A DNA stretch of 63,582 nt, filler included, from Thermoplasmatota archaeon (GTDB lineage Archaea > Thermoplasmatota > E2 > JACPAO01 > JAHFTW01): NCBI GenBank assembly GCA_041623215.1. It is 3 parts of 3 records of this genome, joined end to end, with 100 filler letters (N's around TTAATTAATTAA, not from the genome) between each part and the next. Parts side by side here need not be neighbours in the genome. Positions count along the whole stretch, not along the records: positions 24,514 to 47,380 come from JBFJXH010000013.1; 2 more parts are not named here. One strand, 5' to 3'. Shown here piece after piece: positions 39,001-42,000 of the stretch; position 1 is the stretch's first letter; every line of letters starts with the position of its first letter. The position numbers were made by a program.

Positions 39001-42000
39001 CGGACTTGAAGACGTGGAAGAACGGGTCGGCCGGGGTGAGAACTTCAGACTCGTCAATCATGTCCACGCCCAATTCTTGCAGAATCTGCGCTTCGCCAAA
39101 GTGGCCAATGCGGCACTTGGCCATGACGGGAATGGACACCTCGTCAATGATCGCGGCAATCATGCTTGGGTCGCTCATGCGGGACACGCCGCCTTGCGCC
39201 CGGATGTCGGCCGGGACCCGTTCCAAGGCCATGACCGCCACGGCGCCCGCTTCCTCCGCAATAGCAGCTTGTTCGGCATTGGTGACGTCCATCACGACGC
39301 CGCCCTTCTGCATCTTGGCAAAGCCACGCTTCACCAATTCGGTGCCCCAGCGGAGGTTTTCTAGGTCCAATTCGCGAGCCATGGCGCCGCCGAGACGACC
39401 GGCGGTGATAAGCGCGTAGGCGGCACCTGCCGGCCACCTGTGCTTAAGGCCCTGCACGGGGTGGGCCATCTACCCCCAATGATGAGGTTATCCCAGGAAG
39501 AGGTCCTGATAGCCGAATGACTGAAAGCTCAACGCTGAGGGGGTTCTTCTGAACCGTGTGGGACCGGGCGCGATGCAGGACGCCTGATGCGCCTAGGCGC
39601 CCGCCGGCCGCGCCGCCGCTTCGTCGGGCAAATGCTGCGGCACCCGCGCCTCCACGGCTGCGTGCAAGTCCTTTTTGAGGCCCATCATGAAGGCGAATTC
39701 CGCCACGATGAAGATGGGCGCGATGAACACCTGGAACAGATTGTCGGCGAGGGCAGGGCGTCGTTTTTCCCACACGCCATGGCCCACAAATTGGACGACC
39801 CAACCGGCTACGAAGACTGCTCCACCGACCCACAGCGCGGTTGCGGTTGGCAGGGCAGCAACTTGGAGCGCTGTAGCGAGCAGTACGGTGAAGAGGAGCA
39901 CGCTGGCCACCCCCAAGGCGAAGTCGAGCTTCAGGTAGTAGGCGAGGATTGGCAGGACCAATAGGTGCGCCAACGTCACGGTCAAGTTAAGGAAGCTAAA
40001 CAGGGGTAGCATGCCGGTCAAGACCATGATGCTCCAGACAATGGCCGGCACAAACACGAAGTGAATGACCTTGTTGACCGGGTGTCGGTGGTACGCCGAA
40101 TAGACACTCATCTGGTCGGCCAGTGCTTCCATGCCCCGGGGACAGGACCATGCGGTGATGAGTGCTTCGATAGCCCACCTGTTGCCAGCGAGGCCCCTTG
40201 TGATGGCCCGCGTCAAGTCGCGACGACGGTGACGCGCAGGTTGGCCCCGTACCAGGCAGCAATACGAACAACGCCGGCACGCTCCGGAATGATGCAATCA
40301 TCTAGATCGCCGTCGGACGACCCAGTGCAGGTTGCTCCACCGAGGTAATCGCCGTCTGCCTCGTAGAAGTAAGCGTCCAGGTCGAAGGCGCCGCGTGCTG
40401 TGCCCGGCCCCGTGGTGGATGTAGCAAAGTGGAGTCCAGCCTGCGTCAGCGGGTCAACGGTGAATTCGAAGTGGTCTAGGCGTTCAATAGGGCCGCCCGA
40501 AATCCAGTCGGCCGCCGTGAGCCACGTATGAGGGCCGCCCAACCGAATGGTCCCTTCAGCAAGGTGTTGGCCCGCGGTCGTGCGTTGGCCTCCACCGGTT
40601 GCCTCGTCCCCGCCGACAGCAAGTGATTCAACGAAGATTGGCGCGTCACCAACAGGCACCAGCAGCAGGAGGGCCATGGCAGTCAGAGCACCCATGGCCG
40701 CTTGGACCAACATGATGCCCAACGGGGCCAGACGCGTCTTATGGCTGCCGTTTCGGATGCGCCTCAATCGTCGAGCACAACAACCGTCTGTTGCTGCTGT
40801 TGTTGATCGCCAAGGTTGCCGACCTGAATGAGCACGATGAGCATGTAGATGCCAACGAGTCCGAGCAGGTTGCCGGCGAAGACGGTCAGAAGCCAGAGCA
40901 CGGCGACCACCATGCCAAGGATGCGACCCCACTCCTGGCCTTTGAGAATGCCAATGCCTGCCATGACGGTGGGCACGGCTACCACGAGCACGCCGAGCAT
41001 GATGATGATGCCAACCATAGCGCCAAGGCCCATGAGCCATTCTTCGCCACTTTCGTTGGCGGCAATTCCAAGGCCTGTCTGCACGGCAATCCATGCAATG
41101 AGTCCGCCAACAACAGCTAGGCCGCCGAAGATGATGTCGATGATGCCAACGGCGCGCGCTTGCGCTTGCCAATCCATATGAGCCGATTTCGCCCTGAGCT
41201 CAAGAACCCACCCATCGGGTGCTACGGGCCGTCGCGGTCTTCGATGACGATGACGGTTTGCTGCTGCTGGCTGGGTCCCGATTTGGTACGCCAGTAAAGG
41301 GCCCAGATGACATAGAAGCCCCAAGCGGTCCCGACCGGGATGTTGAGGGTAGCAACGCCCGCCAGCACCAGCGTTACGATGCGCGCCCACGGCTGGCCCG
41401 TCAGCAGTCCTGCACCAGCTACAATTGCCGGAACCCCAAGTAGCGCCATGATGACCACCACAATCACCAGCAGGTCCCCCGGCACGGGACCCCCACCTGA
41501 GCCAGAGGCAAAGAGGGACACGAAGCTCCAGAATAGGAATCCCCCGACGAGGACGCCGGCGCCGTAAACAATCTGTAGGATGCCAATCGCCCGTTCGTGT
41601 CCATCCAGGGCAGCCATGCGGATGCGACGCCTTTGCCACTTATGAAGGGGCCTTTCTTGGCCCCAGACATGCAGCAAGCCGTGGAACTCGACCCCTTGGT
41701 CCCTGGCGAAGACCGCGCCATCATCGCCCACATCGAAGATCGCCTCAACCGCTTCGAAAACAAGAACACGTGGTGGCGGCACAGCGTGAATGGAACCTTG
41801 GATGAGTTCGACGCAGCGTTCGAAGCATCGTGTGCTCGCTTCGAGGCGGAAGAATTGGGCAAGACACACCCGATTTTCGTCGGCGGCGAGGCGCGCGAAC
41901 GCGACACATTCAGCGTCACCAGCCCCGCAGACACCAGCATCGTGGTGGGCCATTTTGCCAAGGGTACCAAGCAAGACTTGCGCGATGCCGTCGCCATCAG

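What a model noticed while it worked through the whole genome (the two positions that open the first line are those of the whole stretch)
39593..40132. Mpo1 dioxygenase pair and fatty-acid 2-hydroxylase-like enzymes: a predicted alpha-oxidation route in an archaeon
The genome has two Mpo1-family genes (C13, C4:29773-30120) and two fatty-acid-hydroxylase-family genes (C63, C210). They are predicted to shorten fatty acids by one carbon through 2-hydroxylation and Mpo1 cleavage, which would open beta-methyl-blocked chains such as phytanate to beta-oxidation. If true it is the first archaeal alpha-oxidation route.
Evidence so far: g00412 36% over 159 aa to yeast MPO1; g01151 36% over 135 aa to yeast Scs7. 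Mpo1-like in 30 of 38 order genomes, mostly two copies, yet in at least only 56 of 10,117 archaea. His boxes intact in both hydroxylases. Many beta-oxidation genes in the tables.
(Added by a program. Inside this text positions count along the whole contig: they may not be those of the stretch shown here. "Call 12" and the like, gene names such as g00115 and contig names such as C1 are that model's own, and its searches are not shown. The text may have been shortened before it was handed on; [...] marks where a part breaks off. The agent that wrote the report below was given it as the finding of a first reader that could run no searches.)

Follow-up and report, generated by a model that had tools for sequence, protein, structure and literature searches.

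The report
Archaeal Mpo1-like hydroxy-fatty-acid trimming enzyme
An archaeal family carries a conserved membrane protein of the yeast Mpo1 family that likely clips one carbon from scavenged 2-hydroxy fatty acids, but the proposed partner hydroxylases are unlinked and not found in most relatives, so a full route for branched lipids such as phytanate is unlikely.

Summary
The genes are real; the pathway drawn through them mostly is not supported. Window 39593-40132 (-) encodes a 179-aa Mpo1-family (PF06127) membrane protein with three invariant histidines. The second 'copy' (C4) is a different, 115-aa subtype, not a duplicate. Long and short forms each occur in 28 of 38 order genomes. Both hydroxylases keep all ten Scs7 histidines, but this subtype is in only 7 of 38 genomes (0 of 10 high-quality ones), and lies on other contigs here. 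Other 2-hydroxylase families tested are as rare (PhyH 3, P450 4, AspH/LpxO 1, TauD 1 of 38), so 18 of 28 long-Mpo1 genomes show none. The racemase family needed downstream of phytanate (PF02515) was found in 1 of 38, none in this family. Best reading (about 50%): Mpo1 salvages 2-hydroxy fatty acids from other organisms' lipids, feeding beta-oxidation and methylmalonyl-CoA mutase. Hydroxylase-plus-Mpo1 alpha-oxidation in a subset: about 15%; phytanate: about 5%. Unexplained: the long gene faces a P5C-dehydrogenase-like gene (17 of 20 loci) and the short gene precedes proline-dehydrogenase-like genes (24 of 28). No assay exists.

The parts
39593..40132 (-). Long-type Mpo1-like (PF06127/DUF962) gene, 179 aa, hydrophobic, mostly helical; predicted Fe(II)-dependent 2-hydroxy fatty acid dioxygenase
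   Evidence: (AlphaFold2 mean pLDDT 92.5)
40088..40090 (-). His15 codon, predicted iron ligand; invariant in 100 of 100 long-type rows
   Evidence: ligand role inferred
40061..40063 (-). His24 codon, predicted iron ligand; invariant in 100 of 100 long-type rows
   Evidence: ligand role inferred
39779..39781 (-). His118 codon in the W-x2-Q-x2-G-H-x3-E-x3-P motif, predicted iron ligand; invariant in 100 of 100 long-type rows
   Evidence: ligand role inferred
38375..39469 (-). pdxS (SOR/SNZ, PF01680), downstream on the same strand; syntenic neighbour in 16 of 20 relatives' loci; context, no functional link shown
41669..43312 (+). Aldehyde dehydrogenase, best NCBIfam match L-glutamate gamma-semialdehyde (P5C) dehydrogenase (393 bits, under the 648 cut-off); divergent from the Mpo1-like gene in 17 of 20 relatives' loci
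40213..41587 (-). Three small ORFs without a Pfam match here, between the Mpo1-like gene and the dehydrogenase; number varies among relatives (a relative's version matches DUF7144)

Best explanation
The gene encodes a long-type Mpo1-family membrane protein, conserved in single copy across this archaeal family, that likely works alone as an iron-dependent dioxygenase removing C1 from free 2-hydroxy fatty acids scavenged from other organisms' lipids. Shown: family membership, three invariant histidines, fixed locus, co-residence with acyl-CoA dehydrogenases, methylmalonyl-CoA mutase and cytochrome oxidase, and the scarcity of every 2-hydroxylase family tested. Inferred: H15, H24 and H118 bind Fe(II); O2 cleaves C1-C2 to give CO2 and a fatty acid one carbon shorter, as for yeast Mpo1; the product is activated to CoA and beta-oxidised (a 2-hydroxy group blocks normal beta-oxidation, established knowledge); odd chains end in propionyl-CoA, handled by carboxylase and mutase. 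Inferred origin: one acquisition from bacteria early in the order. The Scs7-like hydroxylases are a separate, patchy set of genes that likely hydroxylate a lipid-bound acyl chain and are not needed by Mpo1.
For: PF06127 match; all 30 Atlas feature hits are Mpo1-like clusters, top score 0.96. H15, N20, H24, Q114, H118, E122, P126 invariant in 100 of 100 rows. Long type in 28 of 38 order genomes, 8 of 10 high-quality; 22 order sequences lie on one side of a branch, SH-aLRT 96, among proteobacteria-labelled relatives (quick tree). Host: 7-9 acyl-CoA dehydrogenase matches, methylmalonyl-CoA mutase and COX1 each in 5 of 5 genomes tested. 18 of 28 long-Mpo1 genomes have no match to PF04116, PhyH, P450, AspH/LpxO or TauD, so the substrate would have to come from outside. 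[quoted passage not shown]
Against: No prokaryotic member is shown to have this activity in any paper I could read. I could not align to yeast Mpo1, and the tree holds no eukaryotic sequence, so orthology is untested. No lipid-catabolism gene is a conserved neighbour in 20 archaeal loci or among the recurring neighbours of 80 metagenome loci, which I read by eye as housekeeping genes. No sphingolipid-breakdown entry was found: neutral ceramidase 1 of 38; the single PF00282 gene looks like an MfnA-type decarboxylase by my reading of its sequence. Both Mpo1-like genes sit beside proline-catabolism-like genes, which this reading leaves unexplained.
Confidence: 0.5

Rival explanations
1. In the subset of genomes that have both, a stand-alone Scs7-like hydroxylase makes 2-hydroxy fatty acids from straight chains and Mpo1 cleaves them: a two-enzyme, CoA-independent alpha-oxidation that shortens or remodels acyl chains.
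For: All ten Scs7 histidines are kept in both proteins. All 7 hydroxylase genomes have long Mpo1. Myxobacterial FA2H homologues are functional 2-hydroxylases, and the FA2H in vitro assay accepts free fatty acids (PMC10002949, passages). Earlier scan notes report Mpo1 fused or paired with hydroxylases elsewhere (unchecked leads). PlsC-like acyltransferases are in 5 of 5 genomes tested.
Against: Unlinked here and in all loci examined; 21 of 28 long-Mpo1 genomes lack the subtype; co-occurrence is not above base rate (p 0.16). No cytochrome b5 domain found in 5 of 5 genomes tested, four of which carry the hydroxylase. No hydroxylase of this subtype in 86 metagenome and viral Mpo1 loci. Scs7 structure favours ceramide over acyl-CoA.
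Confidence: 0.15
2. One reading: hydroxylase plus Mpo1 convert phytanate to pristanate and open beta-methyl-blocked isoprenoid chains to beta-oxidation.
For: The best-holding sequencing runs are marine metagenomes, where phytol-derived acids would occur (one study, possibly the source sample). Many acyl-CoA dehydrogenases and a propionyl-CoA route are present.
Against: FA2H is described as the hydroxylase of straight fatty acids; phytanate uses PhyH and HACL. PhyH: 3 of 38, not in this genome. The only over-cut-off TPP_enzyme_N gene here is MenD-like. PF02515, the family of the 2-methylacyl-CoA racemase needed to beta-oxidise pristanate (need recalled from established knowledge), is in 1 of 38 genomes and 0 of 32 in this family, with 6 of 14 controls positive.
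Confidence: 0.05
3. The Mpo1-like proteins are iron oxygenases tied to amino-acid (proline) catabolism, for example decarboxylating small 2-hydroxy acids, or are co-regulated with it, and have no role in fatty acids.
For: Long gene divergent from a P5C-dehydrogenase-like gene in 17 of 20 loci, some with no gene between. Short gene directly upstream of a sarcosine-oxidase-like trio in 19 and of a PutA-type proline dehydrogenase in 5 of 28 loci; the two are mutually exclusive across the order.
Against: Synteny extends to unrelated genes (pdxS, EamA, Fpg), so inheritance may explain it. The trio persists without the short gene in several genomes and in other families. Among 80 metagenome loci only 2, both close archaeal-type matches, have the dehydrogenase; no proline dehydrogenase was found.
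Confidence: 0.12
4. The protein is a metal-binding membrane enzyme acting on another membrane lipid (own or foreign) in a reaction that differs from yeast Mpo1.
For: The family is widespread in bacteria with automatic names only; two subtypes are kept side by side in 26 of 38 genomes, which suggests two jobs; no solved relative.
Against: The only characterised activity I could find for the family is 2-OH fatty acid cleavage; the histidine set is unchanged.
Confidence: 0.18

Closest known systems
Yeast Mpo1 (YGL010w), Fe(II)-dependent 2-hydroxy fatty acid dioxygenase; Pfam PF06127 / DUF962
   Same: Same Pfam family, similar size, hydrophobic helices, three invariant histidines (their catalytic role in yeast is recalled from Mori et al. 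2020, which I could not read).
   Different: Archaeal host; no phytosphingosine pathway found; closest labelled relatives are proteobacterial DUF962 proteins (40-51% identity); a second, short subtype is present; no activity data.
Bacterial long-type DUF962 / 'uncharacterized membrane protein YGL010W' (e.g. Pararobbsia, Burkholderiales)
   Same: Same motifs, stand-alone gene, no hydroxylase neighbour in the loci examined.
   Different: The archaeal sequences form their own branch and sit between pdxS and a P5C-dehydrogenase-like gene.
Yeast Scs7p / mammalian FA2H and myxobacterial FA2H-like 2-hydroxylases (PF04116)
   Same: C63 and C210 proteins keep the four His boxes with ten histidines.
   Different: No fused cytochrome b5; nearest labelled relatives are untested Bacillales and Dormibacteraeota 'sterol desaturase family' proteins at about 35%; patchy distribution.
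Mammalian phytanate alpha-oxidation (acyl-CoA synthetase, PHYH, HACL1, aldehyde dehydrogenase, then AMACR)
   Different: PhyH, a HACL-like enzyme and the AMACR family were not found in this genome; chemistry on CoA esters rather than free acids.

Membership tests
Mpo1-like family (PF06127) | Profile match above the curated cut-off | tested here: met
   67.7 bits versus 24 for the window gene; 113 bits for the C4 gene
Mpo1-like family (PF06127) | Three conserved histidines (feature recalled from Mori et al. 2020, paper not held) | tested here: met
   H15, H24, H118 in 100 of 100 long rows; aligned histidines in all 14 short rows shown; direct alignment to yeast not possible
Mpo1-like family (PF06127) | Integral membrane protein | tested here: met
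   Long hydrophobic helices by hydropathy and model; prediction only
Mpo1 dioxygenase (functional sense) | Fe2+/O2-dependent conversion of 2-OH fatty acid to the (n-1) fatty acid | not testable with these tools
   needs an assay
Mpo1 dioxygenase (functional sense) | Orthology with the yeast protein | not tested
   no eukaryotic sequence was obtained; tree is prokaryotic or unlabelled
Scs7/FA2H 2-hydroxylases | Four His boxes, ten histidines, aligned to Scs7p | tested here: met
Scs7/FA2H 2-hydroxylases | Cytochrome b5 domain or partner as electron donor | tested here: not met
   225-aa proteins without the domain; PF00173 in 0 of 5 genomes (genomes 85-94% complete; another donor is possible)
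Scs7/FA2H 2-hydroxylases | 2-hydroxylation of an acyl chain | not testable with these tools
   needs an assay
Hydroxylase-Mpo1 alpha-oxidation pathway | Linkage or co-occurrence of the two enzymes | tested here: not met
   unlinked; 7 of 38 versus 28 of 38; Fisher p 0.16
Phytanate alpha-oxidation | Phytanoyl-CoA hydroxylase (PhyH) | tested here: not met
   3 of 38, none in own genome (no control genome rang, but three order genomes did)
Phytanate alpha-oxidation | 2-hydroxyacyl-CoA lyase | tested here: not met
   TPP_enzyme_N over cut-off once in own genome, MenD-like; the other four genomes' hits were not classified
Phytanate alpha-oxidation | 2-methylacyl-CoA racemase (PF02515) for downstream beta-oxidation | tested here: not met
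   1 of 38, 0 in this family; 6 of 14 controls positive
Atu-type beta-carboxylation bypass | AtuA (PF07287) | tested here: inconclusive
   0 of 5, but no control rang either

The most novel reading that the evidence does not exclude
In a subset of this archaeal family (7 of 38 order genomes) stand-alone Scs7-like hydroxylases and Mpo1 form a two-enzyme, CoA-independent alpha-oxidation cycle, the first described in an archaeon, which may also accept methyl-branched acids; the rest of the family keeps only the cleavage half for scavenged 2-hydroxy fatty acids.
Probability: 0.15. Interest if true: 0.65.

Novelty: new member of a known kind. Interest (0 to 1): 0.33.

Why it matters
If the protein is an active Mpo1, it would be an alpha-oxidation step in an archaeon, for which my searches found no report, and would indicate that this uncultured lineage feeds on the 2-hydroxylated lipids of bacteria and eukaryotes. 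It is also a small, well-predicted test protein for a family whose prokaryotic members have no assayed function in the papers I could read, with two subtypes side by side in one genome. It does not, on present evidence, supply an archaeal route for phytol or isoprenoid breakdown.

Tried and rejected
Duplicate 'pair': rejected, the two genes are distinct subtypes. Contamination: rejected; the long gene is syntenic across genera, GC3 of all four genes is within the genome's 5-95% range, and both hydroxylase loci share a neighbour with the same-genus genome G030. Missed hydroxylases: a profile of the archaeal hydroxylases gave 7 of 38. Alternative 2-hydroxylases: PhyH 3, P450 4, PF05118 1, TauD 1 of 38; PF13640 2 of 5, one in the own genome (C5), not near Mpo1. 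Fused forms: 4 longer hits, all N-terminally over-called ORFs by my reading (weak search, only 7990 candidates scored); 6 viral loci, all stand-alone. NCBIfam has no model for the four genes. Sequencing runs: no RNA holder listed. Sigma-70 promoter scan found none, not informative for archaea. AtuA search inconclusive. Seki 2019 and Mori 2020 are not held. The careful tree did not finish; the quick tree is quoted, with no one-clade test.

Full report
Setting. The window joins contigs of a 1.94-Mb, 223-contig, 88% complete genome; contig C13 occupies window 24514-47380. A 54%-identical relative of the protein is labelled 'Thermoplasmatota archaeon' (P0049) and a 63%-identical one 'uncultured Halobacteriales archaeon' (L056); I take the lineage to be Thermoplasmatota and did not place it more finely. 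The runs holding most of the stretch are marine metagenomes of one study, possibly the source.

The gene. 39593-40132 (-) encodes 179 aa matching PF06127. All 30 Atlas feature hits are Mpo1-like clusters, mostly bacterial. H15, N20, H24, Q114, H118, E122 and P126 are invariant in 100 of 100 long-type rows. The AlphaFold2 model is confident (pLDDT 92.5) and mostly helical; no solved relative was found. That three histidines are the catalytic iron ligands of yeast Mpo1 is recalled from Mori et al. 2020, which is not held. That yeast Mpo1 is an Fe(II) dioxygenase doing one-step alpha-oxidation of 2-OH fatty acids is from passages of PMC10398889 and PMC9624242.

Two subtypes. The C4 gene (115 aa) keeps the three histidines but lacks about 55 central residues; its Atlas neighbours are short bacterial DUF962 clusters. 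From match lengths, long is in 28 of 38 order genomes, short in 28, both in 26, either in 30 (tally; four weak matches under the cut-off dropped; one long copy is cut by a contig end). In a sample of 401 phylum genomes the long query hit 23: 19 in this order and 4 in one distant genus at 28-29% identity. In a quick tree of 100 rows, the 22 order sequences lie on one side of a branch (SH-aLRT 96, with 14 unlabelled rows inside) among proteobacteria-labelled relatives, and the distant archaeal sequence is a long branch apart (midpoint root, careful search unfinished). One acquisition from bacteria is inferred, not shown.

Hydroxylases. The C63 and C210 proteins (225 aa each) match Scs7p at E 3.9e-11 and 0.0034 with all ten histidines. 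Nearest labelled relatives are Bacillales and Dormibacteraeota proteins at about 35%. PF04116 is in 9 of 38 genomes; the Scs7-like subtype in 7 of 38 and 0 of 10 high-quality genomes. All 7 have long Mpo1, but p is 0.16 and kin are not independent. In 11 hydroxylase loci no Mpo1 or recurring lipid gene was seen; neighbours read by eye include QueE-like, AlkA-like and ribosomal L11 genes. No cytochrome b5 was found in 5 genomes, 4 with the hydroxylase. PMC10002949 (passages) says FA2H hydroxylates straight chains, that ceramide fits the Scs7 site, that free acids work in vitro, and that myxobacteria have functional homologues.

Other sources of 2-OH acids. PhyH 3 of 38, P450 4 of 38, AspH/LpxO 1 of 38, TauD 1 of 38, none in the own genome; PF13640 2 of 5 including one own gene on C5. 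Eighteen of 28 long-Mpo1 genomes have none of the five families searched order-wide; among high-quality genomes 8 of 10 have long Mpo1 and 1 of 10 has any of them. Neutral ceramidase 1 of 38. Absences are 'not found' in genomes 65-94% complete.

Downstream capacity. In 5 of 5 genomes tested (of 38): 7-9 acyl-CoA dehydrogenase matches (some of these serve amino-acid catabolism, by general knowledge), methylmalonyl-CoA mutase, COX1, PlsC-like acyltransferases. For phytanate the supports are missing: PhyH, a HACL-like enzyme (own TPP gene is MenD-like) and PF02515 (1 of 38).

Neighbourhood. In 20 of the 27 relatives' long loci fetched wide, an aldehyde dehydrogenase lies divergent in 17 and pdxS downstream in 16. 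Its best match is P5C dehydrogenase, under cut-off; Mpo1 chemistry needs no aldehyde dehydrogenase. In 28 short loci, the next gene downstream belongs to a sarcosine-oxidase-like trio in 19 and is a PutA-type proline dehydrogenase in 5. The 5 genomes with PF01619 all lack the trio's alpha subunit, which 31 of 38 have: an in-place replacement that suggests the trio is a proline dehydrogenase. Both Mpo1-like genes thus abut proline-catabolism-like genes. I read this as inherited gene order, since unrelated genes are equally syntenic and bacterial relatives lack the link, but it is unexplained.

Earlier scan notes report Mpo1 fused or paired with hydroxylases in other genomes. They keep the idea of coupling alive in general; I found no such fusion or pairing for this clade.

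Literature. Ten searches listed no paper on archaeal Mpo1 or archaeal alpha-oxidation by title and abstract start; I read passages of four papers only (PMC10398889, PMC9624242, PMC10002949, PMC13332142), no supplements, and the library lacks most subscription journals.

Verdict. Observation confirmed; interpretation partly supported. A new archaeal member of a known family, most likely a salvage dioxygenase (0.5). Hydroxylase-coupled alpha-oxidation in a subset 0.15; phytanate route 0.05. Interest 0.33.

Noticed in passing
G000:C4:27101-29714 (L135) and L013, L016, L022, L023, L028: A sarcosine-oxidase-like three-gene cluster downstream of the short Mpo1-like gene is replaced in place by a PutA-type proline dehydrogenase in 5 genomes of one genus; the two are mutually exclusive across 38 genomes. 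This suggests the trio is a proline dehydrogenase.
   Followed up: yes
window 39593-43312 and G000:C4:27101-30120: Both Mpo1-like subtypes lie next to genes for the two steps of proline oxidation (P5C-dehydrogenase-like in 17 of 20 loci; proline-dehydrogenase-like in 24 of 28). Unexplained.
   Followed up: partly
L178:1970-3438: In a giant-virus contig a DAGK/YegS-type lipid kinase gene (PF00781) ends just before an Mpo1-like gene on the same strand, as a sphingolipid-breakdown pair would.
   Followed up: partly
L176:848-3353: In another giant-virus contig an Mpo1-like gene is followed by an acyl-CoA dehydrogenase gene.
   Followed up: partly
L106 (G407:C126): A second, distant archaeal group (4 genomes of one genus in the phylum sample) has a long Mpo1-like gene only 28% identical, on a separate long branch: likely an independent acquisition.
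   Followed up: partly
G000:C150:1988-4419: A lipase-like alpha/beta hydrolase (read by eye), a PlsC-like acyltransferase and a probable acyl-CoA synthetase lie together; 2-5 PlsC-like genes occur in 5 of 5 genomes tested.
   Followed up: no
window 35957-38343: An iron-containing alcohol dehydrogenase gene divergent from an RnfC/Nuo51-like FMN-binding gene, close to the Mpo1-like gene in this genome only; not a recurring neighbour in relatives.
   Followed up: no
G000:C118:4565-5587 (L132): MenD-like gene, pointing to menaquinone synthesis in this archaeon (cut by the contig end).
   Followed up: no
L037-L055 (G026, G027, G028, G034): Some genomes carry 3-5 Scs7-like hydroxylase paralogues while most relatives have none.
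   Followed up: no
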